DNA of 64,000 bases, from the NCBI RefSeq assembly GCF_021028975.2, contig NC_059432.1, forward strand, positions 82,770,001 through 82,834,000, written 5' to 3'. Shown piece after piece: positions 1,753 to 36,700 of the stretch. Both the position numbers and the translations under genes were made by a program. The notes under the pieces were generated by a model. The model was not told the DNA's origin and did no database searches. It saw only the letters and a list, made by a program, of their open reading frames with translations. Position 1 is the first letter of the stretch, and each line of letters begins with the position of its first letter. This DNA comes from Sphaerodactylus townsendi. Lineage: Eukaryota.

Positions 1753-1918
1753 CAGTGGTTCTCAACCTTCCTAATGCCGTGACCCTTTAATACAGTTCCT
1801 CGTGTTGTGGTGACCCCCAACCCTAACATTTATCCATTTTACAGATAGAAAACACTGATGCAGAGAGTCTTAGGCGACCCCTGTGAAAGGGTCTTGACCC
1901 ACAGGTTGAGAACCACTG
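1753..1918 (+). mobile_element. SPIN/URR1-type non-autonomous hAT MITE
   Basis: TIRs CAGTGGTTCTCAACCT...AGGTTGAGAACCACTG, 8-bp TSD atgtagat; ends match rodent URR1/SPIN_NA as I recall them. Confidence 0.88.
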
Positions 1919-2090
1919 ATGTAGATGTACAAAGCATGATGAAGGAAAAAATCTGCACTTAGAGCCCCAGAAAGCAAGCAGAAGAAGGAAACAGGAGATG
2001 TCCTTACATTATTGTGATGATTAAAACTCACACTTCGTATTGAGACCCATCTTGTTGAATAAGGTTGTTGGGGGTTTTTTTCCTTCCCAG

Positions 2091-2186
2091 GCTCACAGTA
2101 AACAAGATGATGAATTTTGCAGCATTTGGCAATCATTGCAAGGCTCTGGAAAGTCTCAGCCTTCCCAGCAAAATAGACATGAGAAG
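2091..2186 (+). CDS. XRN1: XRN1 exon 32 (96 nt), first exon on the plus strand
   Basis: ttcccag|AHSKQDDEFCSIWQSLQGSGKSQPSQQNRHEK|gttagt, phase 0 acceptor. Confidence 0.93.
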
Positions 2187-14539: not shown

Positions 14540-14740
14540 TGAGCCCTAGATTCAAAATAGACAAGAGAAAGTTTTGCATCATCCTTCACACATTTCAGAA
14601 TGCATTTTCTAAACCACAACCACAACCTGTAGTTAATTTCTATGGATTTAAAAAGGGATGTGCCAAGTTTATGAAAGAATAGTCTGTCAGGGGCCACTGA
14701 TTAAAGGGAGCCCCTGTATTGAGACATGGTATACCTCTGG
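14540..14740 (+). mobile_element. CR1 LINE 3' fragment (degraded)
   Basis: gacaagagaaag...gatttaaaaagggatgtgccaagtttatgaaagaatagtctgtc resembles the CR1 ORF2 end. Confidence 0.5.
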
Positions 14741-14985
14741 ATATTAATTGCAAGGAGAGGAGGGTGACAGGGATGGGGGACTTTGGCCCTCCATTCTGGG
14801 CTTTTCAGGTTTTCCAGAGTGATCTAGTTGTCCTCTGGCATCTTTGCTCAGAGCCTGAAGGGCAGTTATGTTATAAAAGCCAGAAGCCCAAATAGAAAAC
14901 GTTAGTCCAGGGCAGCTCTGATGCACCATGATACAGATATACCTTTCTGCTTTGCCAGTTATCTGTCATCTTAAGTGATTCAAGG

Positions 14986-15383
14986 CAGTGGTGGGATCCA
15001 AAAATTTTAGTAACAGGTTCCCATGGTGGTGGGATTTAAACAGTGGTGTAGTGCCAATGGGGCTGGGTGGGGCATGACAGGGGCGTGGCCAGGCATTCTG
15101 GGGGCGGGACATTCCTGGGCGGGGCTGTGGCAAGGACGCAGCCACTGTGCTGGTCCTTGGGGGGGAAACGAATGCACGCAGGCGCAGGCTGCCACGCACG
15201 CCGGTGCACCTCCTGCTAGACTGCTTCAAGTTCTGTGCGCTACTGCTGAGGAGCAGAGGAGGGGCGTAACTAAGGCAAAAATCACGTGGCAAAATCACCA
15301 ATTAGTAACCCCCTCTCGGCACACACAAATAATTAGTAACCTACTCTCGGGAACCTGTGAGAACCTGCTGGATCCCATCTCTG
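14986..15383. mobile_element. Non-autonomous hAT element
   Basis: TIR cagtggtgggatcca / tggatcccatctctg, TSD attcaagg. Confidence 0.85.
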
Positions 15384-16119
15384 ATTCAAGGGTATTTATT
15401 CAATTGAGGGCTCTTTGGGACAGTGGACAGTCTTTGACTCCAAAGCAAATTTGGCTTAATACAGAACCAAATATGGTTCTTTTAAAATAAACATATTTAG
15501 CCTAAAAGTATATCGGAGGAAGTAGGTGGGAGGGTAGAATAGCCAGTATGTGAAAAAATGGCAGGCAAAGTTTTTTTTTTTAATGGGACTATAGGGCTTC
15601 TTGAAGATGCTTGGCAGAAGGGGAAATGATTGAAGTGAACTGGAGAAATCCAAGTGTGAACTATACATACATACATAGTTGCCAATGCCTTAAAACAATC
15701 TAACGTTGTAAAATCTCATATGCCCCACTTCCTAGTAAAGAAGTAGCAACAGATAGTGTTGTTGGCCTGCAGAAACTGGATTATGAAAGTGTCAGTAAGG
15801 TTTTCCTGACCTAGATAGCCTACACCAGCTTGATTAGCTTGATCAGCACGTGACAGCTAATCCGCGTCAGCCCTAATTAGTACGCTAATGGAAGAACACC
15901 AACAAATTCCACAGCTGCTACCACCTCTGTTGGTCTCTTGCCTTGAAAATCCTACAGGGTCGCCATAAGTCCGCCGTGACTCGACAGCACTTCCCACCAC
16001 TCAGTATTATTAGGTTGCACATTTTAATTTATGTGAATGGGCATTTTGTTCAGCTCTTGCTGTGAATTCTGACACAAAACTGTAAAAAAAAAAACTGGGT
16101 GACCCCCCTGCTCAAGGAT

Positions 16120-16900
16120 TAAGAGGGCGGGCGGGTGCGGAGACGGTTACTAGGTGTGCCCGCCCGGTTCCAAATGGTGCCTAATAAACACAGAGCGGCC
16201 CTTCAGGATCAGGCGCTCCAAAGAGAAGCGAAAAATAGCGCTTGTTTTGTTTCCTCTCCCGGGCAGTTTCGAAAGGGCTGCACAGGCAGCACATTGTTGT
16301 GTTCCCCAATAGCCCTCCCCCCCCCTCCTCCTCCTCCTCCTCCCCGGGCGATTCAGTCCGCCGAAGGCCACTAGCCTTCTCTATTGGCTTTCTGGCTGGC
16401 AACACCCCCTGGCGCTGTGCGCGCCGAGTCCGGCCTCCGTCTGACGACGTCGATATATTTGGCAAGACACCTTTTCCACCCCTCCGCGTTGCAGTTTCGC
16501 CCCTGGTGGCGGGAATCGGAGCGGCTCATTGACCGGCCTCGGGGGCGGGGGCGGGGGCTGGGGCTGGGGCGCGCGGGCTGGCTGTCCATTTGGCTGGAGG
16601 CGAGGAGGCTCGAGGCAAGCTGTGGGGAAGGGGGCGCACGAGGGGCGGCGATGGGCATGAGGCTGAACGCCGCTGGAGCGCTCGAGGGAGATGCGGCTGC
16701 CCCCTCCGCCGCGGCTGCCCCGGCTAAGTACGTTCTCGGTGTAGACGTGGGAAGCACCGTCGTACGGTGCCATGTTTACGATAAAACGGCCGCGATCAAA
16801 GGCTCCAGTACCAAGCAGGTGAGCAAAGAAGCGGACCTATATTGATTTACCGGGTGGAGGTGGTGTCGTGTTTCTTTCGGAGCCCGCGGAACAATGTCTA
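16120..16900 (+). promoter_or_regulatory. CpG island / GK5 promoter
   Basis: High GC and CpG density, GC boxes (ggggcggggg near 16541-16555), inverted CCAAT (attgg near 16383); spans exon 1. Confidence 0.85.
16651..16818 (+). CDS. GK5: GK5 exon 1 (168 nt from first ATG)
   Basis: MGMRLNAAG...YVLGVDVGSTVVRCHVYDKTAAIKGSSTKQ|gtgagc. Confidence 0.9.
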
Positions 16901-19900
16901 ATAAAGCTGATCTCCAGTGGTTTTTTTGCCCTGCTTTTGAAAAGAATCCTGTGTTGGTTCTGTTTGGGGAAACTCTTCTTTCCAGGGGCCGGATCGGGAA
17001 GGGTGGCAGGTGTCCCCTCGAGGGGCAGTGACAGGGGCAGCAGCTGGAGGTGCAGTTACCTAAAAGGGGTGGCTCGTTCTGCAACACTAGCGGCCAGTTG
17101 ACGTTTTTAAGCTGCTGCTACCGGTAAGAGGTAGGGGAGACTCAGTTGCCCAGCAGCGATGGCGCCTTCTGCAGCGCAAAATGCCTCCTCCCCATTAGGC
17201 TGTTGCAAGGAGACTCAGTTGCCCTGGCCTACAGCATGACTCTTCTGGCACAGACACTCTATTCCTCTGTTAGTTTGGTGCTAGGAGGTGGGAGGGGAGA
17301 GGGATACCTGTGGCCTCAGAGTGGAGGCATAGCCCTTTGTAAGGCAAAAGTTGAGTAAGGGAAAAGAAGGTGGAGGTAAAGTTTTATGAGGAGATGTTCA
17401 AAGATGTCAAGTTGAACAAGTTCTATGCAGGGGAAGACAGAGGCCCCCAGGTAACCTTCCTTGGCGTGGCTAATCTCCCTCCCGCCCAGGTCCCCTATGC
17501 TCTTCCACCTACAGGACCTTCAAATTCCTTGTCTTTTTGTCCCCTTCTTTCAAGGACCAAACATTGACACTGGCTGAGATAGGTTTGGGGCCTGCAAGAT
17601 GCGTGGGAGGTTTGGGGGGAGGGCTTAGAGTGCACTCTAAATAATCATGGAGGAAGAAGAGTTTTGAGAGCTGGTGATCATTAACTGTGTAGGTAAGCTC
17701 CCCTTCCTTGTGCTCTGCTGAGGCACTCCAAGCGCTAGAGCAGCCTGGAGTCAAATGGGGTGGAGGGAAAGATGACAGACCTCTACTCCCTCCTCCCCAG
17801 CTTTAAAACTGAGAGCTGCGTTATGCTTGGCTTTGCCAAAGGCTGTGAGTAGACATGCCCCCTCATCTGTTAGGCTTGGCCTTCCCCAAAGACTTTGATT
17901 TTACACCTTGGGAAAGAGGGTGACAAGAACAGAGGGGCTGTTGTGCTCTACATGCCATCAGTTACTTCCAGAAGTTAACAGCCTTGCTAAGGTCATGCAA
18001 ACTGAGGGCTGTGGCTTCCTTCATTGAGTCAGTCCATCATATGTTGGGCCTCCCTGTTTTCCTACTGTCTTCAACATTTCCTAGCATTATTGTCTTTTCC
18101 TGTGACCAATTAAATACAGTAGCTTCAGTTTAGTCATTTTAGCTTCTAGTAAAGTACGTAAATCCAAATTTACACCCTGGTCAGCATATTAGTTCGGATT
18201 ATAAATTAGGCCAGCTTTCTATAACCTATGCTATGTTGTGCAGTTTTTGAAACTAAGCTGTAGTTGGATGGAGAGGCACCTGGGCAAGCTGACCAGCCTC
18301 TGATCTTAGCTGCAAACTGCTTTGATTTCAAATATTTCGAGATTAGCTTCCCTGTAATTAAAGTTTACAATACTGTACAATGAAGCTAACAATCTGAACT
18401 TTTAAAAAACATAGTGTCACCACAGTGCCTTCGGACCAAATACCAAATCCAGTTTTACATTCTTTACAAAAAAGTTTTAACCTAAAAGCAAACTAATGAC
18501 AGTTAAAACAAATATTTTAATCCAAAAGGAATTAATCTAGTTATATATGAATGTATATATTGTTTTACTTGAAATATTTATATCTCCATTTTCTTCTGAA
18601 CATTGCAAGACCCCAGGCAAGTTCCACTTGCTATTTCCATATCACTTTCCTGATCTAAATAGCTTCCAGTGTTGTTATTAGAACTGTGGTAATTTATGTA
18701 TCTAAATTGCTTTTGTAGTTGTTTCTACCGCTGGCTAGTAACAGTTTTCGAATGCTCTTTTGAAGTGTTTTTTTTTAAGCATTGGGAGATCATAACGCCA
18801 GATTTACAGTGTAATCAAGAAAGAGGGGGGCAAAAGAACTCAGAAGGCAGCATGATCCCAACACCAACATAAATGCCATTTGTGCCAGTGCTGGGCCCTT
18901 AAGCCAGTGCTAGGGGCAGATGTGTCAGCAACACACCTCTGATGCAGGAGACCATGCTGGTGCCAAAGGGGATGTTCCCAGAGTCAGCATGCTGCAGTGG
19001 TTAAGGGCAGGTGCACTCTAATCTGGAGAACTGGATTTGATCCCCAGCTCTGCCACTTGAGCTGTGGAAGCTTACTTGATGAACCAGATTAGCTTGTGCA
19101 CTCCAACACATGCCAGCTGGGTGACTGGCTAGTCACAGTTCTTCAGAGCTCTCACAGGCCCACCTACCTCACAGGGTGTTTGTTGTGAGGGGAAGAGAAA
19201 GGAGCTTGTGAACCCCTTTGAGCCTCCTTACAGGAGAGAAAGGGGGGATATAAATCCAAACTCCTCTTCTTCTTCCTCTTCCTCCCAGGGGCGGGGCTGA
19301 CATTAGTTGGCTTCCTGAGCCCGTTCAGCCTGGGAACAACCCAGATTGCCAGCCTATTGTGCTGCATCGGCCACAGAGGAAAGAGGAGCATCACTGGGCC
19401 ACAGCATAGCAAAATTCTTAGGAAGAGGTGCAGCTGCATGTGGTTGACCCCTCCTTGGCTGTGGGGCATCTACCTCCTCTCAGAATTGCACTGCCCATCT
19501 ATTTATACTTTTCTGTTATTCTGTTATTTAGTACAACCCAAGAAGAATTATCAAGATTCAGTGGAATGTGTTGTTGATTCAAATAATTTCTTCCCCAAGC
19601 AGAAGTCTCTAATTTGTACCAAAGCAATATCATATTTCACACGAATCTGATCCCAAACTTTATGTGGCCTGCAACTTTATTTGGGATTTGAGTTTCTCTA
19701 AGAAAAGGTTTTTCTCGTTCTTTCAGTTGCCAAAGTTGATATTGAGAACACAGTGTAATGTTGTCTGCATAGCTTGCTAGAATTTAACTCTTCCTTCTGT
19801 GGGAGAATTCAGATGTGTCAAGGCAAAAGCTTAGTAGTTATCACTTATTGTAAGCATTTACATGCTACGAGGCCAATTCACAGTGCCAGCAATCTCATAG

Positions 19901-22126
19901 GATTGCTCACAGGCCAGCTCCTGGGAGTCTATGGACTCACAAGTTGCATGAACCCATTCTACTTGTGAAATGGCATAAATTGTGACAACTGCTTGTACAG
20001 GCTCCTCATAGAGGTAAACATATCCATACAGTCAGGGTCCAGACTGGACCCAGGACCCTCTAGTGCAGTGGTGGTGAATCTTTGGCACTCCAGATGTTAT
20101 GGACTACAATTCCCATCAGCCAATTGGCCATGCTGTCAGGGGCTGATGGGATGTAGTCCTGCAGCCCTCTGGAGACCTGGGGAACCCCACCATGTAACTC
20201 TAGTGGGCCCATTTGCTCCCAATCCCTAATTACACCAATATCTACGGACAGTAGGACATGTTAACAGGGTTCTGCTGCCACGAAGCTACATGACTCCCCT
20301 GCACCAGCCTGAGTGCCCCTACGCTGGCATCTGTTCCTCTTTGTGAGGCACTGGTGACAGTGATAGTGGTGTAGGGGTCATGCTGCATCCAATGTAGTTT
20401 CAACCCCCTCCCCCCCTTAAGTGTTTAAAAAATATGAGAGGTAAGATTATCTGATACAGGAAGCACTTTTTCTCTTTAGCCAAAAGGCTAACAGGTAAAC
20501 TTTGTTGTAAGTTCTAGGGAAGAGCTTTTACCACCTGTTTGATTCCTTTACCCTTTGGATTAGTTTGTTGATGAAGGGTAAGCCTGCTCTTTGGTTATAG
20601 TTTTCCCCTTATTTTAAGCAACTTTTAAGCAACCATATTCAGTGGAGAAAAGCAGGTCAAAACCTTACATGTACCAGCATCCTGTGGGGTAATGACTGCA
20701 CATGAGTTTCTTATTAACTAGATAATGGGTGAATCCCCACTGGGAAAATAAACCGGGTTCCCCCTGGTTCCAGGACCAGGACAGAGTCGAGTTAGGCATG
20801 AAAGCAGTGGGGAGTCCTTGCCCAAACCGGGATTTTTAGGGTGAGTATCCTGGGATATTTTGACCGAGGGGATTCACCCAGTGTTACTTCTCAATATGTG
20901 ATAAATACAGTAGGCATTTTGTAATATGGGAAATGACATTGACTGTAAGGCTGGCATGGCAGTAACTCTTGTTTTGTTTTGACCTATTTGATGAGCATGT
21001 GGTTTCTGTTGATTAGGTTGAAGTACTTCATCCTCAGCCTGGATGGGTTGAACTGGACCCTGAAGGCCTGTGGACACAGTTTGTCGATGTGGTAAAAGAG
21101 GCAGTTCAAGGTAACCATATAACTAAACTCTAGCACCTTATGCAGAAGGTACTGACTGAGGCACATTTTTGTACCTTTCCTTTTATTCAGCCCTCTTCCT
21201 GTTGTGAATCCCAAAAAGGGGGGGTGCCTGAGGTTGAGGAATTCATGTTAACTAAAGGTTGTGTTACATTGTTAATTGCTATGAGAAGAGAAAGGGGGAC
21301 AATACTCAGCTCTCTACTTCTTAGGGCAGTGGAAGTGCTTCTTAACCCTTGATACGAAATAATTGTGACCTTTTATGCTAGACACAGAATGCTGTATAGA
21401 ACATGCTTATGTCAGCCTGTATGTAAAAAGTATGTTGTTGTATCAGGTGAATAGAAGGAGAACTCATCAAGGTGCTTTTTCCCATTGGACATGTTATCAA
21501 ATTCTAGTGATAGCAATTTGTTGTTGCAGTTGGGAAAGGAAGGGAAAGGAGCTTGTAAGCCACTTTGAGTCTCCTTACAGGAAAGAAAGGTGGGATATAA
21601 ATCCAAACTCTTCTCTTCTTCTACTTCAACAAGTTATCTGGAATCTTCAGTCAGTAAAATAACTAGAAACCTATTAGGATTTTGCATAGCGATGTGTCTA
21701 TCATACAAATAAACCTTTTGTGTGATTTATGCTTAACTACTGGTAGTTGAGTTTCCTCAATTCTCACTTTATGTCTTCTAAAATACTCCCAAGACTACAA
21801 TCCTAAGCACATTTATAGGCAAACTACTCATTGTGAAGCTTTGCTTTTTAAATGTAAAGAAACCTTTGGTGGCAGTGAACTGAGTGGGGAAAGGTAGAGA
21901 ACTCTTTTCCAGCTGGCACCATTCTGCTAAAATATCTCTCCTGAACTAACATGCATTCAATTCTGTGTGACTAAGAATGAATGAACAGTTTGTGGTATTA
22001 CATAAGTTCTGTGACGCTCACTGCTTATTGTTCCTTTTTTTATCTTCTAGCTGCAGGAATTAAAATGAGTCAGATTTCTTCAATGGGATTTGCGACACAC
22101 CGTGCAACTTTCCTTACATGGAACCG
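16651..22126 (+). CDS. GK5: Glycerol kinase 5 (FGGY family), exons 1-3 only; remainder not found in window
   Basis: YVLGVDVGSTVVRCHVYD / VEVLHPQPGWVELDPEGLWTQFVDVVKEAVQ / AAGIKMSQISSMGFATHRATFLTWN match GK5. Syntenic immediately downstream of the XRN1 3' end. Confidence 0.93.
17940..18150 (-). mobile_element. RTE/BovB-like LINE 3' fragment
   Basis: cttccttcattgagtcagtccatc...cttcaacatttcctagcattattgtcttttcc is typical of a reverse-complemented RTE-BovB 3' end. Confidence 0.6.
18981..19277 (+). mobile_element. Squam3-like SINE
   Basis: gcagtggttaagggcag...ctaatctggagaac...cacctacctcacagggtg...atataaatccaaactc, (ctt)n tail. Confidence 0.8.
20065..20180. mobile_element. hAT MITE (family of 38405-38552), degraded
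   Basis: ccagatgttatggactacaattcccatcagcc...ggctgatgggatgtagtcc hairpin. Confidence 0.65.
21017..21110 (+). CDS. GK5: GK5 exon 2 (94 nt)
   Basis: VEVLHPQPGWVELDPEGLWTQFVDVVKEAVQ. Confidence 0.93.
21520..21625 (+). mobile_element. Squam3-like SINE 3' fragment
   Basis: ggaagggaaaggagcttgtaagccactttgagtctccttacagg...tataaatccaaactcttc. Confidence 0.7.
22051..22126 (+). CDS. GK5: GK5 exon 3 (76 nt)
   Basis: AGIKMSQISSMGFATHRATFLTWN, gtaagt donor. Confidence 0.92.
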
Positions 22127-23737
22127 GTAAGTACACTTCTTACGACAGACATCTGCAGCTGCGTTTTGTAAATACAGATGTCATCAACTATGAAGTATGG
22201 CTCACTATATGTTAGGTCAAAAAGTACACAATTAACTGAGTTGTCCAATAATGGTCAGTTATTGAGTAGATATATGCCCCCCAGACATTAAACTCAAAAC
22301 TACTGTAATCAGTTATTTACAGCTAATAAAGTTATAGGCGTAAAATATGTATTTCACTGTTCTTGAACACATTACCTTATCTCTCCTCAGGTCTTACTTA
22401 GAACTCCTTGGATAGCATATGAAGTCACAAATACTGTATAAATTGTAACTAAATGGAAATGGCAGCTGTAAACGACAAGATTTCAGTGCAGTTAGGGTTA
22501 AAGGCAGGAGGTTATGGCTCCTTAATGAAGTATGTATATGTTCATACCAGTAGTCCTGCAGGAATAAGAACCCCTTATATGTTTGCCATCAACTCACTTG
22601 AGAAAATTCTGTTTTACAATATTTACTGCCTCCTTCATGAAGTCACTGATAGTGGTAAAATAATTTATTTGCCACTCTGTGATATATATATCTGTCCCAA
22701 AACTCAGATCAAGCCCAGGATGTGGTTTGTAAGTGTGTACTTTCATCACACTGCTGGGGAGTATCCTAAGTAGCAAATACATACACAGAGAGGTTAGTCC
22801 TTGGCCCACATTGGAGACATTGTGGTGACTGAAGGGGGAATTTCATCATCCAACTCAAGGGGCTTCTGGAGCTCACTGGTACCGTATAGCTGCTGTGTGA
22901 AGAGTCTCTGTGAGGGCTCGATGGTACATTCTCAGAACTCCTTATATGGTCACTGGCCATCTCTGGCTTTCATGTTGTGATTACCTGAACTCACAAAGAT
23001 GGTGTAAGACAAAGAACATGGAAAGAACCCCAGGTTTCCTCTTCCAGGCCTTTCCTTCCTCTGGTCAAATTCAAGTCATCACTTGTATTCCATAACATCT
23101 ACATTTATTAAATTGTAGGCAGGCTAAAGTGAGAGAAAAGGTTATGGGGTAATAGAATATGTAAGTATGCCTGTGACGTTACTTTTGATGATGCATTGCT
23201 TAAACAGTTTAGCATATTTAAATGAATCCTGTGATCTTTCAGTTAAAGGACTAAAAAGGGATGTCCCTCCCCCTTTAAAATGTTTGCTTAATTAAATGGG
23301 TGTATTTGTTTTGTTGCTCCTGTCTAGTATTGCTTAAGATGGATTAATGACCTACCTGTTTCCAATACTAGCAAGACATTTCCCAATTAACATAATGCTG
23401 CCAAAGAGAGTGACTCCACACCTGTTTGTTCCAGAGAAAATCCAGTCCTTGAATATATCAATCTAATCTGAGTTAGGAAATATCTCTTTGGATCTCAGTG
23501 GATGAGCTTTGTTTCTTGGGCCCTTCTTCCCAAGTCTCAGTGTTCAAAATGGCTTTTCTTCTCTCCAATATATATGTTAGTTATTTTAGAATAAAGACAA
23601 AATCATCCCTCAAAAGCGATATCTTGGTATAGTGTTAGAACCTGCCTAGGTTCTTAAATGTATAAGAAAGAAAGATTGACTTCTTCATGTGCATGTGTTG
23701 ACTCCCTTCCCCTTTATTTGGAATAACTGCATAATTT

Positions 23738-24220
23738 AAATTTGGGCTCCCTAGTTTAAACACCATTGAAAATAATGCTGTTTGGGGGTGGAATCCAGCA
23801 TCACTTGTTTAAACTAGGGAGCCCAGATTCTCCTTTTAAATCCACCTTAAAGGGGGAATATGAGATTCCCAGTTTAAACAACATTGAAAGTGATGCTATT
23901 TTTGGGTTGATTCTCCCCCGCCCTGAAACAGCATCCCTTTCAATGTTTAAACTGGGAACCTCAGATTCTCCCTTTCAATCCATTCCAAAGGGGGGGATTT
24001 AAAAGGAGAATCTGGGGAAATTTGGGGGATGCCTGCTGTCAGGGGTGCAGTTGTTAAGCTAGCAGCACCAAACTTTTAGGGTATCTTTAGGAGACTCTCC
24101 TAATGATACCACCCAGGTTTGGTGAAGTTTGGTTCAGGGGGTCCAATGTTATGGACCCTCAAAGGTGTACCCCCATCTTCTATTAGCTCCCATTGGAAAC
24201 AATGGGGGATGGGGGTACCC
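23738..24220. mobile_element. Truncated fragment of a repeat-rich DNA transposon related to 24839-26164
   Basis: Internal inverted repeats (ctccctagtttaaac / gtttaaactagggag); 24060-24215 is similar to 24977-25135. Confidence 0.65.
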
Positions 24221-24399
24221 ATCAGCCTCTGTCGGCATGGCCAATTAGCCCATGCTGGTAGAAACTGATAGAGATATGGACTAATCTGGAAGAATGCGAT
24301 TCCCCTGCACTAGAAGAATGTCCCCAAAACACTTGTCAAAATACTGCCCTCCATTTTCCCAAGCACCCGGCTTATACATTCATAAAATTCACCTCAATC

Positions 24400-27320
24400 C
24401 TAAAATATTCAATACAAACCAAGGATTAAATAGCAGATGATGCAATACACAAATTAAAACTTAAAATGCAAATTTAAACATTTAAATTATTCTTAATTTA
24501 AATTATTCTTAATAATTTAAATTCTTAATAATTTAAAAGGTACTTTAAAATTATATTATAAAAATATTTAAGTCCCACTTAATCCTGCGGCACGATACAA
24601 ATATGCTGTACTTGATACTTTATTGCGCAATACTTAGCAACCTGACTGGGGAGATGAGCATTTTCACCAGAGAACAACATTTTAATCTCATTTTCTTCTG
24701 AGCCTCCAAAAAGTTTGTTCAGCAGAGAGGCAATAATCTTAGATTGGTCTACATTATAAAAGGGGCACCTGAAAAAGACGCGCTAATGGGTTTCTAATTA
24801 CCCTGACTTACATGGGCACACTCCAGCATGGTGGAGGACACTGGCGTAATGCCCATTGGGCAAGGTGGGCAGCTGCCCAGGGCATCACCTTGTGGGGGGC
24901 ATCAAAATGCTGGGTTCGTTTTTGGGTATTTTTAATGGTTTTCCATTTTTCGCCTGCAGGGGGCGCATTTTTTAGGCTAGCGGCACCAAAATTTCAGCAT
25001 ATCATCAGGAGACTGTTCTTATGCTATCCCCCAGGTTTGGTGGGGTTTGGTCCAGGGAGTCCAAAGTTATGGACTCTCAAAGGGGGTGTCCCTATCCCCC
25101 ATTGTTTCCAATGGGAGCTAATAGGAGATGGGGGCTACAGTTTTGAGGGTCCATAACTTTAATCCCTGAATGCTACTGCACCAAGCTTGAGGCTATCATT
25201 AGGGCAGTCTCCTGATGAGACCCTGAAAGTTTTGAGACTGTGCCTTCAGAAATGTGCCCCCCCCAGCCTGCAACCCCCATTGACAGCAATACAGAAAACT
25301 CAATGCAGAACAAAGATTCTTGGGCAAATTTGGGGATATTCTTGCAGGGGGGGCATTCTTGGACGTATCATCACCAAAATTTCAGGGTATCATCTGGAGA
25401 CTGTCATGATGGCACGCCCAATGTTTGGTGCAGTTTGGTTTAGGGAGTCCAAAGTTATGGACCCTCAAAAGGGTATCCCCCTTCTCCTTAGCAAAGAATG
25501 TGGGATGGGGTACCCCCTTTGAGGGTCCATAACTTTGGACCGTTCATTCAAACTGCACAAAACATGAAATTATCCCCATCAGGACAGTTTCCAAATGATA
25601 CCACAATTATTAACCAATACATCCAAAAATGCGCCCCCTTCAGGAACATCCTAGAAATTTGCCCGAGAATCTTTGTTCTGCATTTAGTTTTCTGTATTGC
25701 TGTCAATGGGGGTTGCAACTGAGAACACATTTCTGAATGCACAGTCTCAAAACTTTCAGGGTCTCATCAGGAGAACTGCCCTGATGATACCAAGGTTCAG
25801 TGCAGTTTGGTTCGGGGGGGTAAAGTTATGGACCCTCAAGGCTATGGCCCCCATCTCCTATTGGCTCCCATTTGGAAGCACAATGAGGGATGAAACACCC
25901 CCTTTGAGGAATCCCATAACTTTGAACTCATTGAATAAACCTCACCAAACAAGGGGAGTAACATAAGGACAATCACCTATTGATATCTTGAGACTTGATG
26001 CTGATATGTCTAAAAATGCACCCCCTACAGTATAATATCCTGAAGTGCCAAAAAAAAATGGAACGTTAGTGGTGGAGTGGCCGCCCATGGGGGTGGGGGG
26101 GGGCATCCAACTCAGGTTTTGCCCAGGGCTACAGTTTGCCCAGGGCTGCCTCGTTATGCCCCTGGTGGAGGATAAGGCATAGCAACTCGCTAAGACGAAT
26201 GCCCTCCTATGGCTCTCCCCACCCCCAACCCACGCCCCCCGCCAGAAAGTAAAAGCAGGCTGGCAGAGCAAGAACACAGAACTAGAAGGTACAATGAACA
26301 CAGGTGATCTCAAAAGTCCAATCTTTGATCATCAGCCTTATCATTTGCTTTGCTTGGTCTCTGCCTATGTCACCCAAAGCTTGGAGGGAGAAACCAAGAC
26401 TTTCTGATCTACTTTCAATGGTACTGTGCCATTTAGATTTGAAGTTGTCACAAAGAATCAGCAGACCATTTGGGTCAAAATGTATATTTAACCATAGCAA
26501 AATGGATGCAAGTCCAATTCTTGTTTTGACGATCAGCATACCCGTTTCTAACCCCACCAACCAATTAGGCACACATTCAGGAACTTGAAGAACTGCTCTA
26601 AAGAACATTGACTGAACCAGCAATAATGGTACAAAACAAGAAGCAGGTGGACTGAGATGTGTCCAAAATAGCATTGGAGTTTCTGTTTTAGCCTGAAACA
26701 GTCTGAGGGCAGCTAGTACAAAATAGGTCCTCGTTGTATGAATCTGATTATATTGTGGCTAGATCTCTCCCCTAAATTTGCTGCATATTTTGCAATTCCA
26801 CCTTCGAAACAGAGGCCTGAGGTATTACTCCTGGATACCTAAAACTATTTACTTGTTTTGGCCTCTGCCCTTTTATATGCCAGGTCCTGATTCTTCGGCA
26901 TTTGCCAAAAACATAACCCTGGTTTTATTATAATTAATTGTAAGATGTTCATTATCAAAATACTCAGCTAATTTGGCAAGAGCTGTTTCCATACCAAGAG
27001 GTGTTCTCAATATTTTAACTACACCATCAGCATTTAATAAAACCAAAATGTTCCAGTGCAAGAGTTGTATTAGGGTAGCTGACGAGGTTGTTATAATAAA
27101 AAGCATGGGAGCTAAGAGACAACCCTGTCAGACTCCTTTGTAGATGTTAATCGTGTCTGTGAGAGTCTCTTTTCTGCTGCACCTAATTCTTAATGCTATC
27201 TGTCCATAAAGGCCTTGGATGAGGGGGAAAAGCCTCTTATTGATTGAAGATGCTTCCAATTTGGCTCATAATATGGGTCATGAAAGAGACTCAAATGCCA
27301 CCTTAAGATCAACAGAGTTA
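24400..27320 (-). mobile_element. 5'-truncated degenerate non-LTR retrotransposon (RT domain to 3' end), interrupted by a hAT insertion
   Basis: Minus strand reads DLKVAFES, KGV*QGCLLAPMLF, LLNADG (YADD-like), INYNKTRVM, RRAFVLA and VFFRCPFY; stops and frameshifts present; clade not assigned. Confidence 0.8.
24839..26164. mobile_element. 1.3 kb fold-back non-autonomous hAT element
   Basis: TIR cactggcgtaa / ttatgcccctg, perfect 8-bp TSD gtggagga (24831-24838, 26165-26172), long internal inverted arms. Confidence 0.88.
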
Positions 27321-27506
27321 TGATCATTCTAGTTGCTACCGAGTGCAAAGCTGGATGCATCTGACCTAGATACTAATTCTGTAATCAGAAAACTTTGTCT
27401 AAAGTTTACCACTAAAACCAAAACATTTAGCTAGCAGCCACTGAAGCCTAGTTTGTGCAACAGCTCGCTTCTGTAATTTAATCTGAAGAACAAAATGTGG
27501 ACTTAC

Positions 27507-27732
27507 TCGAGTTGGAACAAAGAGGGAACAAGGGGAATGGTTGAGGCCTCCTAGATGTGCTTTTTGTGAAGACACAGAAAACGATTCAGCTGAACATGAG
27601 CTGTAGGGACTCACAGCTGGCTGGGGTTTGACTATGGCTGTTAGCTTCTGGTTTCCTGTTTCAGATCGATGGCCATGGGAAAGATTTATTAAGGCACTGG
27701 CTGGCATACGGTACCCTCTGGCAGGTGAGCAC
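27507..27732 (-). CDS. XRN1: XRN1 exon 31 (226 nt), last exon on the minus strand
   Basis: [38 protein letters not shown]...[13 protein letters not shown]|GTAAGT, phase 0 donor. Confidence 0.95.
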
Positions 27733-30700
27733 CTAAAGGAAGAGCAAAAGGCTAATAAAGTTTTTCTGTTAGGCTGATTGCCCACAATTATTAAGTGGTC
27801 AGGTCAAATGTGGGTAGCAGATTTTTGAAATATAATTCCAAAACCCCTTTTAATGCTACAAATGGAAGGTAAGGTGAAACTAGCAATGGATGTAGAACTC
27901 TAACCTAGGAAACCTGGGTTCAGATCCCTCTTTTATGAAGACCACTGGGTGGTCTCATGCTTTTTACTTACTGTTCCTCTTCATCTATAAAATAACCAGG
28001 AAAAAGGGAGGGTGAGGGGGGTCTTACTACCAACCAAAGGGCAAACCAAACTAAACACCAGAAAACCAAAAAAGAATTCAAGAAACATCATGAATTCTAA
28101 TATAAAAAGTATGACAAGATAATAGTTTGAAACAAATACACAAACAAATAATTAAACTGTGTTTACATATTGTCTATATTTTATGAGTGCGTTTGTTTCA
28201 AGTCATTTGGCTGTTTTTGTCGATGTGTTCTATGTGCATTAGATTTTTTCAAGCTTTTTCCTTTTTCCCCCACCTCATCTACAAAGTAACAAAGTTTATC
28301 TCTACAAACCTAATTGTTAAGCCTCCATGAAACTCTTCATCAAACAGTACTTCGTACAGCACATCAGATTCTCTGCTAGCTGAAAAAAAAATATGAAGAG
28401 CACAATATGATGCAGTGATGCAGACTCACACTACTGTGATGCAACAGGAATTCTCTATTGATTTATTCTCTCATTACTCCTCACAGATTTCCAACCTATC
28501 CATAACACAGCTTAAAGCTATATATAAGATTACCATACTAATGGTTATTCCAAAAATGACAAATATTCAGCAAGAAGGAAATGAGGCACTAATGAAAGAG
28601 AAATAGTTTTTGTTTAGCACTACTGGTCTCTTCTTCAAATGCTGAACTGTCATCCTTTGTCGTTCATCCAGACCACACAGGTTAACAGCATTAGCAGATT
28701 TTATATGTACACAAAAGTTTACATCATAAACAATTTAAATAATGCATTATTTTTACCTTGATTCTAATGCAATAAATGATTTTCAAATTCTTCTAAAAGC
28801 TGAGAGTTTGTCATAAATAAGAGATGTAATTTTACCTCCTTTAATTCCAATTATGGTACCACGAAGACCAGTGGGAACTGAAAAGCTCTCTCTCACATTC
28901 ACAACACGGTCAAACAGTCGATATTCTGCATCTCGGTCTGGTACGGTTCCATGCTGCTGTTCTAAAGGCTGGTAGGAATCAATACTAATGAAATCACAGC
29001 AAGTCTCCAATCGTGTTCTACTTTCAGATTTCACAACAAAATCACTAACATATGCCACTAACAATTAAATACATCTAAATTCTATGCACAGAAGCATAAC
29101 CCTTTTCTACTCCAGCAGCCAGAAGTACATCCCTAGGGATGGGGGATCCCCAGGAGCAGAATGAGAGGAAATTGGAGTGCTGCTGTGGGAGAGAAGAACC
29201 CTGTGAATGTGGATCTTATTATCGGGATCCAACCCACTATGTCAAATCAATCAAATCCATCTTTATTGGCATATCTGTGAAAGGCTATAAAATAACAATA
29301 ATTAAAAAGTGAGTTGAACAACTATCAGTGTTATAAAGAAACACATGAATATCACAATAATTTGACAATCTTTGCTTTAAAAATCTTCCCCCAGAATTTT
29401 GCCACCAATTCAGTAATTAGAGAGTTATGATCATGTGACAAGTACTGGATTGTCTGCTCCTTATTTACAGGTATTTTGGCCTAAACTGTGTGCCACAAAT
29501 TACATCAGAAGTATCTACGTGCTTAATGAAACTACTGCTAGTCTACACAAAGGAAATTTATCCATGGCATCTGTAAGATTCTCCATGCAACATTTCTAGA
29601 ATTAAACAGTTAAACACCCCCCCCCCAACCAGCTAGAAGTACCTGCTATGAAGGTAAAATCAAAATATGCCTCGTTACTATGGATAAGGTAACACCTATC
29701 ATTGACAAATTTAGCCCTGAACATTTTAATTAAGATTATACTTTGAAGTACGACAACCCAGAAGTCTTTATAAAGCATGAAGAATCTCATTTTAATATCT
29801 TACAATCAATCAAATAGTCAAAACTTACTCTGTATAACAAGTGGGGTTTCACAGTCACACGCACTTTCTTATTACTTTTTCTTTGCTGAAGGAATAAGAG
29901 ATGAAAACTAATAGAATAAACCATTCAAGGACTGCATAACCTTATAAAAATAATACTTTTCAGCACAAATCAACAACCCACTCTTCCCTTCTTTACAACA
30001 TCACCCATATTCAGGTAATCATGCCTATAGATTAATGTCATCTTTGCCTGGGGAGCCTTAAGCAATAGAACACTGGTATTAGAAGAAAGATCATCAGGAC
30101 TGTCATGAACATGTCAGAAGTTAGGCAAGTCTAATATCTCAAGTAAAATCTGAGGTCTCTAATTTCTCCAGGCTAAAGGGAAAGTCATGTTTGGTTTCCA
30201 AACTGCAGATCAAAACCCAGATAGAAACTTTACAACAACATGACAGTAATTTGTTCTTATTCAATAGGGTTTTAGGCATTCTTGGAATAGCTGACCTCTA
30301 TGATGGATCTCAAACTGTTCAGCAGTCTACTTGTAGAGGAGGAGGGTAGAATCAACTGCTACTTGAGAACACAAATCTTACAGAAATCTTATTACACAGT
30401 CCTAAGTGTAGTGTAACTATCAGCCTATTAAGACTAGATAGATGTGGTTCAAACCCTGTACGCTGCCTTAAATTCCTTAAGACAGAAAGGCAGCTAATAA
30501 ATGTTTTAAATAAATAAATAATAAATTCCTACCCCACCACGAAGCTCACTAAGTGACCAGTTACTCTCAAGGTGCTGAGTAAATCTTTCATTATTACTTC
30601 CTGATTCCTTTATTATTACTTCCTTTTCTCAACACCTTGATTCTTTTTTCTGCTGCTCCTGTGGCCCAGACTTCTTCTCAGTCATTCTCAGACAAATATA

Positions 30701-33700
30701 ACTCATGGGGCTGTTGTGAGTTCATAAGATAAGCATCTGAACATAACAAGCTCCCTGGAGGAATGGTGGGTAATAAAACTGTAACATATTAAAAACCTTC
30801 CTAAACAAGCATAGCTTCTTCGACTCAATGCTAACATCTCTGGAATACTAATGGGCATACAACTGATCAGGCCTGGTGAACAGGTAAAACTACTAATATC
30901 TTCTTCCAAGTTATAAAGCAGCTTACAATTCAAAGTTAATCCACAATTATTTTTAAGTTAACTAAGTACATATTTCTAACAGCACTAGCAGAATCTATTT
31001 TAAATAATTTACAGTCCTATTTACTATGCACTGTTATAAGAAACATTTGTAGTTCCTTTGCCTTTTTAAAAAATACCTTGCACTTTTCTATTTCTTCTTC
31101 AATCTTCTCAACAATGGCAGCATCCAGAATTTGTAAATCACAGGAAGAACGAGAAAGAGTACTAACAGGATGAGCCTTTAACCATGCAACGATTTCTTGA
31201 ACTTTCTCGGCACTAGATGAAGAATTATTCCAGATTAATAAATATCCGCAATAATACATTTAATTTCGACTATGACTAGGACACAAAAACATTGTCAGAA
31301 TAAAGCTTGCACAGCAGTTATCCACCGAACAGCAAATTCAGTTGCTGAGCTTGCAGACAGTTGAAAGCATAAAATTTAGTTTTCCTCAACTAGTTATATT
31401 TGTATCCCAATAATTATTTACTTGCTTACTATAATTATCTACTTTCCCTATTAGGGACAGTTATTAGGATGAAGAGGCTGGTTATGCTAGCATATTATTC
31501 TGCTTTAAAAATCAAACAAAGCAAGATTCTATCTGCTAAAAATCACTGCCAAAAACAGCTTTCCATTACTGTATCAGGTCACTACAGTACTTGAGCATTT
31601 TAAAATTTCTGATAAAATGGAAGATGAAATATCTGAAATCTCCAGAGCATCAACATGAACCTCCTGTGAAGATTTGTGCTTTTCAGTTTACTAACAGTTA
31701 AGTACTGGTCGTACAAGAGTTAAGGATGATAATTTCAGATTCAGGAAGATAGAAGACAGTTCTGATTATGAATTTATTATGAGGTTGGGGGCATCGAGTG
31801 AAGAGTGATGCAAAATGAAATGCAATGTCTGGGGACTGCGGAAGCTGGACTTGGCTGCACCCCCACCCCTGGCAGGCACCGCCTCTTATCTTATGGAGGT
31901 TCAAGATGCTGGGGTCACAGAAGGACTGAGGGAGAAAGGTCCCTGGCCCAAAGAAGCAGGGGGATGCAAGGGTCATGGAGCAACAACCCGAATGCAGAGC
32001 ACTGGGTGAACCACGGCTAGAAAGAAGCTGTGAGTGCTGGGAGGAGAGAGGTTGACAGCCTGACACTTGAGACAGGGCCCAGCCACAGTCACATGAGCCT
32101 TTCTCAGGAGAAAAACTCTATTTGAGGCCACAAGATGGACCCCACTAGGTGGGACGTCAGGGGCACAGCCTTGGACCCCAGAGTGAGACATCTGAAACTT
32201 AATGTTTCACAAAGAAAACTGCCCTGAGCCCAAAAGGGAAAAGGTAGTATAGAAATATCGTAATAAGTTAACAAATAACATATTTGGTGGGATAGTCCTG
32301 AATTCTAATGTTTCACAAATGGAGCGTCAGTCATAAAAAGGAACTTCCTGACCCCCTCCACTCCCCACAAATTCTGCTGCCAAGAGCCAGTAGGTCCCTG
32401 GAAACAACTCAGTGTCTAAGTGGAATCAGGGAACTGCTGGAAATCACTGGTGGCACAAGTGACTTCTGCAAACAGAAAGGATATTAGGCTATAAACCATA
32501 GGATAACTATAGCTACATAATGGATTCAGAAGATGATACAAGTATTGGGTTACAGTAATAATAAGACAAGGTTGCATAATGGTTACAATGTCAAACAAGG
32601 AACTGGGAGAGTCAGATTTGAATCTCTACTCTATCATGCAAGCTTGTTGTGACAACTTGGGCCAGTCAAATATGCTCTGTTCAACCTACCTCACAGGGTT
32701 ATTTTGAGAACAAAATAGAGGTCAGAAGAACTATATAAGCCACTTTGGGTCTCCAGGGAGAAAGGCATGGATAAATTAAGTAAATATATTATAATTAATT
32801 AATGTGCAATTGTATTGGATGCAGAGAATGATCCATGGTTCAACATTTATTTCTTGGTATTTGCAATTTGATGTTTTTTAAAAGAATCAGAATTTTAAAA
32901 TTACCTGGTTCTTTACAAAAGATATATTTCCAAACTTCAAATAATAAAATATTTTCATAAAACTTTCACATACATGTTTATTAACAGCTAAACCTGATTA
33001 ATTTTAGTATATGTCGATCAAGAAATTCTTAAAGCTTTAGCTTACAAGTATACTTACTGTGCATTATCCACTCAGTTTGTTTAGCACTACGACCATTGTT
33101 ACTTTATATAACCTATTTTGTAATGTTATGATTATCAATGCCTTTGTTATGTGATGTTATGATGTTGAAACGTTGAAATGTGGATGTTGTTATTCTATGA
33201 TGTTATGTTAAGATTATTGATGCCTGTTTTGTGATATTATGATGTTTGAAATGAATATTTAAAACGTTATATTTATTGTAATTCAGAATGTTTTGTTACA
33301 CTACTATGTTTATTTATTTCATGCTTATTGATATTATGTTCTTTGATGGTTGTTGTTTAATGTGATGATTATTGATAGTGTGATCTGCAGCTGTTGTTCA
33401 CCGCCCTGAGCACTTCGGGGGAGGGCAGTATACAAATCTAATCAATCGATCAATCAACAGTGCAAACACTTATGACCTGAGAGGAGGGGGAGACCCAAAA
33501 CCAAACATGTGTGATTAGTAAGGCAACAGGTAAAAGCATCAGCTATTTGGTGGTTACTTGCAGACCAGTTCTAGCAATAGGTATCATTCACACATTCCTA
33601 GGAGGTTGAAGCAGACTTTTCCGTTGAATATGGGATTTTCTCTGCCAAATCCAAAACAATACTCTGTATGTAGACTGCCTAGGTATCTACTGTAGCTCTA

Positions 33701-36700
33701 AAAGGGACTTTCTTACCCATTCTCTTCTTCACCAGGCCAAATATCATCTTCATAGAATATATCTTCTTGACCATTTTTTGATATGTAACTGAACAATTCT
33801 GGGACCCTAACAATGCAGAAATAAATTTGAGTAAATTTCCCACACATCTCTGTTCAAATTCCCAAGATCTCCATTTATTGCCCTCTGAGTAGGTGCAACA
33901 GAACAGAATAATGTGTATTGAAAAGTGATTTGGGATCCCAAATGCAATATGTTATAATATTTTGGGATATTTTTACAGCATAGCTGATCCCAAATGTAGC
34001 ATGACAAAAATTCAGAATTCAGAACCAAGACAACTCTCCCTTTCATTTGTATAATTTGTTTTGATCATGAAAAATAAGTATTGTACAGAATCCGACATGC
34101 AATTTGCAGTTGGTAAAATGTTGCTAATTGTACAGTATACAAGAATGATCCACAGAATACAAAACTCTTCATAGAAGGCAGCTTGTGCCAGTAGCAGAAG
34201 GCTGCTAACAGCAATGGAATGCAAACTTTGAATCCAATATATTTTCCAGCGAGAACAAAGTTTAGTAGAACCAATTACCATCACAATTAGTTATCATTTT
34301 TATTCTTTGAACACTAGAAATAATTAAATGGGATGGCACACCATCTCAAAATGGCTGAGGCAAGCTATTAAACAAGGGCTGATGGGCTAACTTCATGGTC
34401 AAAACATTGAAAGCTTTTTTGCTGCAATAGATCTCAATCATGGGAAAGTCAGAGAAAAATCAGGAGTGGTAGGACTCATGTAAAAGTCTACCTTTTAAAG
34501 AGGTAAAGTGAGATATAACCCCACACAGTTGTTGGTTATTGTTGCCAGTACCTCTGATGTACCAGAAAATATTTCTCACTGGCTACATTCTGTATTTTTA
34601 AAAATTCTAGGCTACCTTTCCCCACAAATGCAGGCTCAAGGAAACTCGCTTCAAGTCTTTCAAGGTAAATACAGAAATAAATGAATTTAATATTAGTTTA
34701 TACGGTGCACTGGATGAATAAAGCATAATACCTTTCTAAATATTCAGCAAGGAGTTGTTCTACTGCAGAAGAATACATCCACTCATTTCCAACTTTCTTT
34801 GTATATCCAGGGACTTCCTCATTCTTTTTATTGAATTTTAGGTTCAATCCTACATTTGCTTTATGGTCTCCATGTGGACTGCAAACGAAAGATCAAATTG
34901 GGGGCATATAAGTAATCGCCAAGATAATAAATTGCTGATCCTGTTTGATTTTTCCTGTTCTTTAACTGATATTTAACTACCCGCAATGCTCCATTCTTTT
35001 TATAGGGCAATGGGATAGTAACAGTCAGTGAACCTACATCAAAATGGAGAGGTGGAATATAATTTTTTTCCCATCTTCCACCTCACACTGTTTCATCTTC
35101 CCTCCCAATGCAAATCCACAGACCCGTCTCTTTTCCTGCTTCTTCCTCTCTTTCCTACCCATCAAACAAACTTTCTTTTATCTGACCAAGGCTAGGAGGG
35201 CTCAGTAATAGCTTGATTGCCTTTTGCCGCCAAGTCACAGATGACTTAAGGTGGCCTCGTAGGGTTTCTAAAGCAAGAGATGCCTTTCCCTTCCAAATAC
35301 TAGACAAGGTCGGGACCAAAAGTTTGTGACTGACTCACTCAGGAAGCTTTCAGGGTGTGCCTGGGGATTTGAATCTGGGTTTCCTAGATCCTAGTCTGAC
35401 TCCTTAACCTCTATACCACACTGGCTCGTGTTGCCTAGCAACCCCAAAATAACCACCAGGCTCTCAGATAACTCAGTGAGTTTCCACCTCACAAAAAAAC
35501 AATATTACTTTTAATGGGAAAGGGAAATACCCTTCCGCAATGTATTTTTAAAATTTCAGAATGTTCTGTAAACCAGGGCTTCCCTCAGACTTGTAGAACA
35601 ATCCTTTCTGCGTCTCTAGTCCCAATATGTGGAGTTTTTGAGCTCAAGTATTTTCTACTCTGACTTTGCTCTCCACTGCGAAACATAAACGAACATGCAA
35701 ATATACACATGCAGAACCTCTGCCCTTTTCATTTCTGTCATCAGAATGAAACTTCAAAAGGGCCACTGGTGACTAGGTAACAGCATTTTGGTAGCTCTAG
35801 CTTTAATTCATATAAGCAATTAGTTGTCTTACCACAAACGTTTACACAAAACTTACTTTTTCTTGGATCCTCGTCCAATAAAAATGCTTCCTGTAAATCT
35901 AGACACAAGATAGCCACTTACACCAAGACGAGAAGCCAAAACATATCCAGGATTGTACTTCACAGAATATTTCTGCAACAAAAAAATTGTATAACTGAAA
36001 AAGGTAAGAAGTCTTTCTTGAAGCCAAATCGCTTCTGTCTGACAGTGACCAGGAACGTCTTTTATCTTTTGCTACTTAGGTCTTGAAAGGAAGAAACAAA
36101 ACACAAATAACCATCAGCAATAAATTTTGCTATCCTAACCTATCAGTTATCACAATAAAGACATTGCATAAGCTATCATTACGTTTGAGTAGCAGTGAGA
36201 TTTCTTGTATTCCTGATTTGGCAATTTGAACTGTGGAAAATCAAGAAGTTTCTGAAAAGAAGTGAACAGAGCACAGAGCATTCTCTGCTTGTATTATTCT
36301 TCTAACCTGCAAGGATCATATCACCCACACATTTGCATAATTTTTATGCAGAGTCTTCAAAACAGACAGAAAACCTGTGTGTACTAGGAGTGTGCAGTTA
36401 GCAACTAATCAAAACATAAACCAAATACATCCAACTTTTCAACAGCATATTATCATAACTAATTCAAATTGAAAAATCAACACCTAATATCACGAAAGTT
36501 TCCAACCTGGCTATTATTCTAGCACCTGGCTAACTAATATAGCTTCTGCAGAGATATATCCACTTACGTGCTGATTTTGGATTAAGGCATCCAGCTGTGG
36601 TTCACATGGAATACTGAAAACAACACGAATTCTACCTTCTGAGATCACATCACCTGAATCTTGAACCTTAAAAAGGTGAAAAATATCAATGAGATGCATC

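What the first reader, a model, noticed from the sequence alone, without database searches (positions are those of the whole stretch)
22127..27506. GK5 stops after exon 3 and converges head-on with the XRN1 5' half
Seen: GK5 exon 3 has a normal GTAAGT donor, but I found no exon 4 (expected similar to KTGxHFHNFISWQDLR) on either strand in the window. Downstream on the plus strand lies only antisense XRN1 sequence. As assembled, two CpG-island promoters drive convergent transcripts that both lack their own 3' ends. Inference: the second breakpoint is in GK5 intron 3, and GK5 exon 4 onward should lie on the minus strand to the left of the window.
Basis: partly seen in the sequence, partly recalled or inferred. 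Interest (0 to 1): 0.7.

Follow-up and report, generated by a model that had tools for sequence, protein, structure and literature searches.

The report
Flipped segment splitting XRN1 and GK5
In this gecko genome assembly a 24.5-kb piece carrying the end of XRN1 and the start of GK5 lies back to front between two copies of a small palindromic jumping element, and both genes are complete once it is turned round, so it is likely an assembly error rather than a real break in the two genes.

Summary
GK5 exons 4-16 lie on the minus strand just left of the window, followed by a TFDP gene. About 24.5 kb is inverted. Turned back in silico, it gives intact XRN1 (43 exons, 1770 aa) and GK5 (16 exons, 538 aa) with matching splice phases and no decay. 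Both breakpoints sit in a young 148-bp hairpin MITE with exchanged 8-bp target sites. The left copy (window -371..-224) is clean. The right copy (24218-24307) lacks about 150 bp and is degraded only in its second arm, the pattern nanopore reads show at hairpins. A 15-kb (G15T)n filler replaces ATR exons 58 kb away. Short-read contigs break at these repeats, and none bridges a junction. I favour a repeat-mediated misassembly (0.8). A real MITE-mediated inversion (0.2) is not excluded, because XRN1 1-1228 keeps its nuclease core. No RNA or long reads could be laid. The scan noted similar transposon-flanked inversions in other genomes, but I saw no note on this locus.

The parts
1..24217 (+). Inverted segment (it begins 223 bases left of the window). 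Outside the window to the left lie the left breakpoint, a complete 148-bp palindromic MITE at G000:C8:82,769,629-82,769,776 with unmatched flanks GGCTATCA | TTCTAGTG; the 5' piece of an abundant repeat (element T) at 82,769,475-82,769,628; and GK5 exons 4-16 on minus at 82,769,129 down to 82,745,097
490..9303 (+). XRN1 exons 32-43 (residues 1229-1770), inside the inverted segment
16651..22126 (+). GK5 exons 1-3 (16651-16818, 21017-21109, 22050-22126) behind a CpG island, inside the inverted segment
22127..24220 (+). 5' part of GK5 intron 3; about 23740-24220 is the continuation of element T, reverse-complemented
22795..22907 (-). Terminal exon used by the database model P0185 to end the XRN1 5' half across the right junction; its read support is unknown
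24218..24307 (-). Right breakpoint: MITE remnant (element positions 47-148), opposite orientation to the left copy, second arm degraded, joined to element T by a 3-nt CCC overlap
24308..24315 (+). Target site CACTAGAA, the reverse complement of the TTCTAGTG that follows the left MITE (split target-site duplication)
   Evidence: sequence
24308..27506 (-). 5' part of XRN1 intron 31, with a full element T copy at about 24839-26165
27507..60988 (-). XRN1 exons 1-31 (residues 1-1228) behind a CpG island
38405..38552 (.). Intact copy of the same MITE, 99.3% identical to the left copy, with matching 8-bp target-site duplication ATCTAGAC (internal control)

Best explanation
As assembled, a 24.5-kb segment holding XRN1 exons 32-43 and GK5 exons 1-3 is inverted between two oppositely oriented copies of a 148-bp hairpin MITE, and the inversion was likely made by the assembly, not by the animal. 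Shown: all exons of both genes are present once and rejoin in phase; the target sites are exchanged; public short-read contigs stop at these repeats; the right copy is truncated and error-rich. Inferred: one MITE sits in GK5 intron 3 (inside element T) and one in XRN1 intron 31; contigs ended at both, the unique segment between them was placed back to front, and the right gap was patched with a raw long read spliced on at a 3-nt overlap, so no N marks the join. In the animal the order would be ATR > XRN1 > GK5 > TFDP, all on one strand.
For: (1) Flipping the segment in silico gives XRN1 with 43 GT-AG exons, 1770 aa and no stop, and GK5 with 16 exons, 538 aa and no internal stop; phases match at both breaks. 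(2) No decay: XRN1 residues after 1229 are 89-91% identical to four other geckos, against 89-93% among those geckos; GK5 exons 4-16 are 73-80% identical to three lepidosaur proteins, exons 1-3 63-74%. (3) Full-length XRN1 of about 1700-1770 aa is annotated in Paroedura, Heteronotia, Gekko, Eublepharis and Euleptes (Euleptes is Sphaerodactylidae). (4) The right remnant carries the young-subfamily loop (37 of 40 positions match) but only 38 of 62 in the second arm, while the 30 copies fetched are 99-100% identical to the left copy. Nanopore reads lose accuracy and bases in the second arm of inverted duplications (PMC7229812, passages). The degraded arm's partner arm is absent from the assembly, so the source read likely held a whole MITE and the join skips real sequence (inference). 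(5) About 150 nt are missing at that join (median 108 nt of target site plus element T in the 17 of 20 control loci measured, plus MITE 1-46). (6) 4 of 20 unrearranged T+MITE control loci show similar second-arm or downstream noise (L029, L032, L033, L038). (7) 58 kb right of the junction, 15,004 nt of (G15T)n, ending in a degraded MITE-family remnant, replace the ATR exons for residues about 1336-1821, which were not found in G000 with a 360-aa query. (8) In run X5 (organism C) a 1965-nt contig aligns to 24308-24830, stops exactly at CACTAGAA and runs on 1401 nt unlike 22800-24307.
Against: No contig or read was seen that joins the flanks in the ancestral order in organism A, so the orientation is untested. 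The left junction is base-perfect, as a true recombination product would be. There is no N gap in 264 kb. Lethality is a weak argument: gecko residue 1228 maps to about mammalian 1224, human XRN1 1-1191 holds the catalytic, PAZ, KOW, winged-helix and SH3 domains and was used as the working enzyme (PMC11982291, passages), and Gk5-deficient mice are described with skin lipid excess and hair loss (PMC6473107, passage citing another paper). A database model (P0185) ends XRN1 in an exon across the right junction. That a nanopore read made the patch is inferred from the error pattern alone.
Confidence: 0.8

Rival explanations
1. A real, very recent inversion made by ectopic recombination (or aberrant hAT transposition) between the two inverted MITEs, carried heterozygously by the sequenced animal or segregating at low frequency; the messy right junction would be a sequencing error laid over a true breakpoint.
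For: Opposite orientation and exchanged target sites are the published signature (PMC2775673, passages). The left junction is exact. The family is young (25 copies 100% identical over 148 nt among the 40 scored), and 2 of 29 other copies have unmatched flanks (L072, L080). Xrn1+/- mice are viable and fertile (PMC8496175, passage).
Against: A read crossing a true right junction should carry about 108 nt of element T, the target site and the clean first arm; all are missing. Nearby sequence is demonstrably junk-filled. 148 bp is a short substrate for recombination (general knowledge, recalled). No partner junction was found within 100 kb on either side of L080, so that case is no replicate.
Confidence: 0.14
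2. A real inversion fixed in the species: XRN1 is expressed as a C-terminally truncated nuclease core (1-1228 plus a new tail), GK5 is lost, and the two promoters fire head-on.
For: The break falls just after the folded core. GK5 loss is survivable in mice as cited. Database models for this locus are truncated (P0002 113 aa; P0190 942 aa, P0185 290 aa, P0192 1219 aa).
Against: The stranded exons show no decay and keep canonical splice sites. All five other gecko genera listed have the full protein. Whole-body Xrn1 null mice die at about E10.5 (that allele removes exons 2-6, so it is not equivalent). The truncated models are predictions on this same assembly, so they are not independent.
Confidence: 0.05
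3. True loss of the GK5 3' half, or a second intact copy of either gene elsewhere.
For: None beyond the absence of exon 4 from the window.
Against: Exons 4-16 are present and intact left of the window. The GK5 protein search and the XRN1 last-exon search each find this locus only.
Confidence: 0.01

Closest known systems
Repeat-induced false inversions in genome assemblies (for example bioRxiv 10.1101/2022.07.06.499059; only the search listing and start of the abstract seen)
   Same: A unique segment flanked by near-identical reverse-complement repeats, in the orientation that breaks conserved genes; short-read contigs end at the repeats.
   Different: The repeat is only 148 bp and itself a hairpin; no N gap marks the joins; the wrong orientation is inferred, not shown by spanning reads.
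[quoted passage not shown]
   Same: Two copies of one element in opposite orientation at the breakpoints, with exchanged target-site duplications.
   Different: There both junctions are complete and non-inverted chromosomes were sequenced; here one junction lacks about 150 nt and is error-rich, the element is a 148-bp MITE, and two conserved genes are cut.
Nanopore base-calling failure at inverted duplications (PMC7229812, passages read)
   Same: Errors and missed bases confined to the second arm of a self-complementary sequence.
   Different: The passages read concern inverted duplications in yeast and human structural variants; applying this to a 74-bp arm, and to this assembly's read type, is my inference.

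Membership tests
Inversion by ectopic recombination between two transposon copies (Galileo type) | Copies of one element at both breakpoints, in opposite orientation | tested here: met
   The remnant fits the reverse complement of the left copy better (score 88 vs 72; loop 37/40 vs 34/40)
Inversion by ectopic recombination between two transposon copies (Galileo type) | Exchanged target-site duplications on all four flanks | tested here: inconclusive
   Three flanks fit (GGCTATCA, TTCTAGTG, CACTAGAA); the fourth falls in the missing ~150 nt
Inversion by ectopic recombination between two transposon copies (Galileo type) | No deletion or duplication at the breakpoints | tested here: not met
   About 150 nt absent at the right junction; may be an assembly loss
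Inversion by ectopic recombination between two transposon copies (Galileo type) | Junctions exist in genomic DNA (spanning reads or PCR) | not testable with these tools
   All 13 listed runs are kept as contigs; no listed piece from the four laid bridges a junction
Repeat-mediated misassembly | Segment bounded by near-identical inverted repeats at which short-read contigs end | tested here: met
   X1 and X3 flank contigs end 5 and 24 nt inside the left MITE and 28-30 nt inside element T; on the right they end at 23762 and 23768
Repeat-mediated misassembly | Junction sequence of low quality or unsupported by reads | tested here: met
   38 of 62 matches in the second arm against 99-100% family identity. 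The zero depth of X1 and X3 at 24296-24363 is not counted, because the tool filters records
Repeat-mediated misassembly | Long reads, linked reads or spliced RNA show the other orientation | not testable with these tools
   No RNA holder and no raw-read run listed
hAT-type MITE (label from my own knowledge of 8-bp duplications) | 8-bp target-site duplication | tested here: met
   26 of 29 other copies match within one mismatch, one more is offset by one base, two are unmatched. The 30 of 30 in the second set were selected with flanks and are biased
hAT-type MITE (label from my own knowledge of 8-bp duplications) | Short element made of inverted repeats, many copies | tested here: met
   148 nt, hairpin of -86.2 kcal/mol, z -24.7; 260 candidates, 40 scored, all 99-100% identical
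hAT-type MITE (label from my own knowledge of 8-bp duplications) | Termini shared with an autonomous hAT transposon | not tested
   No repeat library was available and no transposase search was run
XRN1 and GK5 orthologues | Whole protein recovered, single copy, conserved neighbours | tested here: met
   1771 of 1773 and 529 of 530 reference residues covered; single locus; ATR to the right and TFDP to the left, both on minus

The most novel reading that the evidence does not exclude
A living dwarf gecko carries a MITE-made inversion that trims XRN1 to its nuclease core, removing the C-terminal region that binds decapping factors, knocks out the skin-lipid gene GK5 and sets two promoters head-on: a natural vertebrate test of whether the XRN1 tail is needed, in a genome where a burst of hairpin MITEs is still reshuffling genes.
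Probability: 0.15. Interest if true: 0.7.

Novelty: not a real feature. Interest (0 to 1): 0.2.

Why it matters
If it is an artefact, it explains why the database models of XRN1 and GK5 at this locus are fragments. It also warns that this assembly hides broken joins at young hairpin MITEs without any N, so apparent gene losses and inversions in it need read checks; unmatched target sites are a cheap flag. If it is real, it would be a natural allele separating the XRN1 nuclease from its decapping-factor-binding tail, together with a GK5 null, in a wild vertebrate.

Tried and rejected
No RNA holder was listed for 20900-28500, so expression is untested. Runs X1, X3, X4 and X5 (4 of the 13 listed) were laid on both junctions. 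All are contigs that break at the repeats. The zero depth of X1 and X3 at 24296-24363 proves nothing because records are filtered. The X4 contig starts at L021:4778, one base inside the target site; I cannot read MITE presence or absence from that. A transcript-derived protein of this species spanning either break was sought and not found: exon searches, cluster members of 16 proteins and the representative library (best 91% identity). These searches are insensitive to such a record. No second copy of either junction flank was found in G000 (40 candidates scored each). No partner for the unmatched-flank copy L080 was found in 200 kb. My automatic GK5 model skipped exon 3 and was redone by hand. 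A frameshift at XRN1 exons 24-25 as the cause of the split database models was rejected, because the phases match. A one-MITE model was rejected, because the left MITE sits at the same element T site as in the 20 control loci (20 of about 30 compound matches were fetched; L041 has T reversed; L036 looks like an older subfamily and was left out of the noise count). Literature: XRN1 + GK5 + inversion gave 0 papers; gecko / MITE / hAT / inversion breakpoint listed 7 of 9 papers, none on geckos by title. The primary GK5 mouse paper was not held. No supplements were read.
Full report
Setting. The window is G000:C8:82,770,001-82,834,000. GK5 exon 1 is 100% identical to a 113-aa database protein labelled putative glycerol kinase 5 of Sphaerodactylus townsendi (P0002), so this is a dwarf gecko locus. 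I fetched 120 kb to the left and 80 kb to the right. Coordinates below are contig position minus 82,770,000. There is no N in these 264 kb.

Observation. GK5 exons 1-3 lie on plus and end at a GTAAGT donor at 22127. Exon 4 is at -871..-967 on minus, and exons 5-16 continue to -24903. DP-family exons follow on minus. XRN1 exons 1-31 run 60988 to 27507 on minus, exons 32-43 run 490 to 9303 on plus, and ATR lies to the right on minus. One detail is off: GK5 intron 3 continues in sense to 24220, and XRN1 intron 31 begins at 24308.

Both genes are whole. With the segment reversed in a script, all 41 XRN1 matches and 15 GK5 matches are colinear on one strand. XRN1 has 43 exons with GT-AG introns, 1770 aa and no stop; exon 31 ends and exon 32 starts in phase 0. 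GK5 has 16 exons and 538 aa; exons 3 and 4 join as CG|G. The stranded halves show no decay: XRN1 after residue 1229 is 89-91% identical to four geckos, against 89-93% among those geckos. Each gene is single-copy. Five other gecko genera have full-length XRN1, while the database models on this contig are fragments.

Breakpoints. The left break is a complete 148-bp palindromic MITE at -371..-224 (hairpin -86.2 kcal/mol). It is flanked by GGCTATCA and TTCTAGTG. Normal copies have a matching 8-bp duplication: 26 of 29 other copies within one mismatch, one offset by a base, two unmatched. The right break is a remnant of the same MITE at 24218-24307, in the opposite orientation, followed by CACTAGAA, the reverse complement of TTCTAGTG. 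Left of the left MITE is the 5' piece of a second abundant repeat (element T); its continuation lies reversed at about 23740-24220. In 20 fetched control loci the MITE sits at this same T site and T continues behind it. The simplest reconstruction is therefore two MITE insertions, one in GK5 intron 3 and one in XRN1 intron 31, with their target sites exchanged by a flip. This pattern is what ectopic recombination gives (PMC2775673, passages). It is also what an assembler would give if it crossed over between two identical repeats (inference).

Why I favour the assembler. First, the right remnant has the young-subfamily loop (37 of 40) but matches only 38 of 62 positions in its second arm, while intact copies are 99-100% identical. 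Age cannot easily give that split. Nanopore reads lose accuracy and bases in the second arm of an inverted duplication (PMC7229812, passages), and 4 of 20 control loci show similar noise without rearrangement. Second, the first arm that would cause this effect is absent from the assembly, together with about 108 nt of target site and element T, and the join is a 3-nt CCC overlap. I infer that the source read held a whole MITE and was spliced on by software. Third, 58 kb to the right, 15,004 nt of (G15T)n with 926 spacings of exactly 16 nt replace the ATR exons for residues about 1336-1821 and end in another degraded MITE-family remnant; those exons were not found in G000. Lack of N is thus no proof of continuity here. 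Fourth, public contigs from two samples of organism A stop inside the repeats on both sides, so short reads cannot orient the segment. Fifth, a contig from organism C (about 97-98% identical in its other pieces) stops aligning exactly at CACTAGAA and runs on for 1401 nt unlike the assembled left neighbour, as an uninterrupted XRN1 intron would.

What speaks against. Nothing I could lay crosses a junction in organism A. The organism C contig was not recovered on the left flank at the stricter threshold. The left junction is perfect. Selection is a weaker argument than it looks. Xrn1-null mice die at about E10.5 and heterozygotes are normal (PMC8496175, passages), but the break here falls at about mammalian residue 1224, beyond the 1-1191 core used as active enzyme (PMC11982291, passages). 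Gk5-deficient mice are cited as having skin and hair defects (PMC6473107, passage). One database model ends XRN1 in an exon at 22907, across the right junction, with unknown support. Two of 29 other MITE copies also have unmatched flanks, which fits either reading.

Earlier notes. Two unchecked notes on other pieces of this genome describe raw-read errors and a patchy assembly. A note on another genome supplied the Galileo comparison, which I then read.

Verdict. The arrangement is truly in the assembly and is now resolved to the base. It is likely a repeat-mediated misassembly (0.8); a real heterozygous (0.14) or fixed (0.05) inversion remains open until long reads, RNA junctions or PCR are checked. 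Interest 0.2.

Noticed in passing
G000:C8:82,852,444-82,867,447 (window coordinate 82444-97447; L014-L016): 15,004 nt of (G15T)n ending in a degraded MITE-family remnant; ATR exons for residues about 1336-1821 of P0222 are missing there and were not found in G000. Likely a filled assembly gap.
   Followed up: partly
L080 (G000:C8:67,583,927-67,584,074) and L072 (G000:C1497:6658-6805): Two more MITE copies with unmatched 8-bp flanks; no partner junction found within 100 kb on either side of L080.
   Followed up: partly
L022-L041: The young MITE has inserted again and again at one GGCTAG site of element T; 20 of about 30 compound matches were examined, most with matching target-site duplications. 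It may be a hotspot or an amplified compound element.
   Followed up: partly
L029, L032, L033, L038: Noisy sequence in the second MITE arm or just behind it, suggesting raw long-read patches at these loci.
   Followed up: partly
window 35857 / 34878: Database models split the XRN1 5' half into 942 aa and 290 aa at this intron although donor, acceptor and phase are normal.
   Followed up: partly
window 490-588 and 3776-3892: XRN1 exon 32 is absent from the Gekko model P0010 and exon 36 from P0010 and the Euleptes model P0194; likely alternative exons.
   Followed up: no
window coordinates 65736-66200 and 70356-70820 (L013): 465-nt direct repeat, 99.1% identical, 4.6 kb apart inside ATR, starting TGTAG; possibly the two ends of a young LTR-type element.
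   Followed up: no
window 24839-26165: Full element T copy with terminal inverted repeats, internal inverted sub-repeats and GGTGGAGGA on both sides, which looks like a target-site duplication.
   Followed up: no
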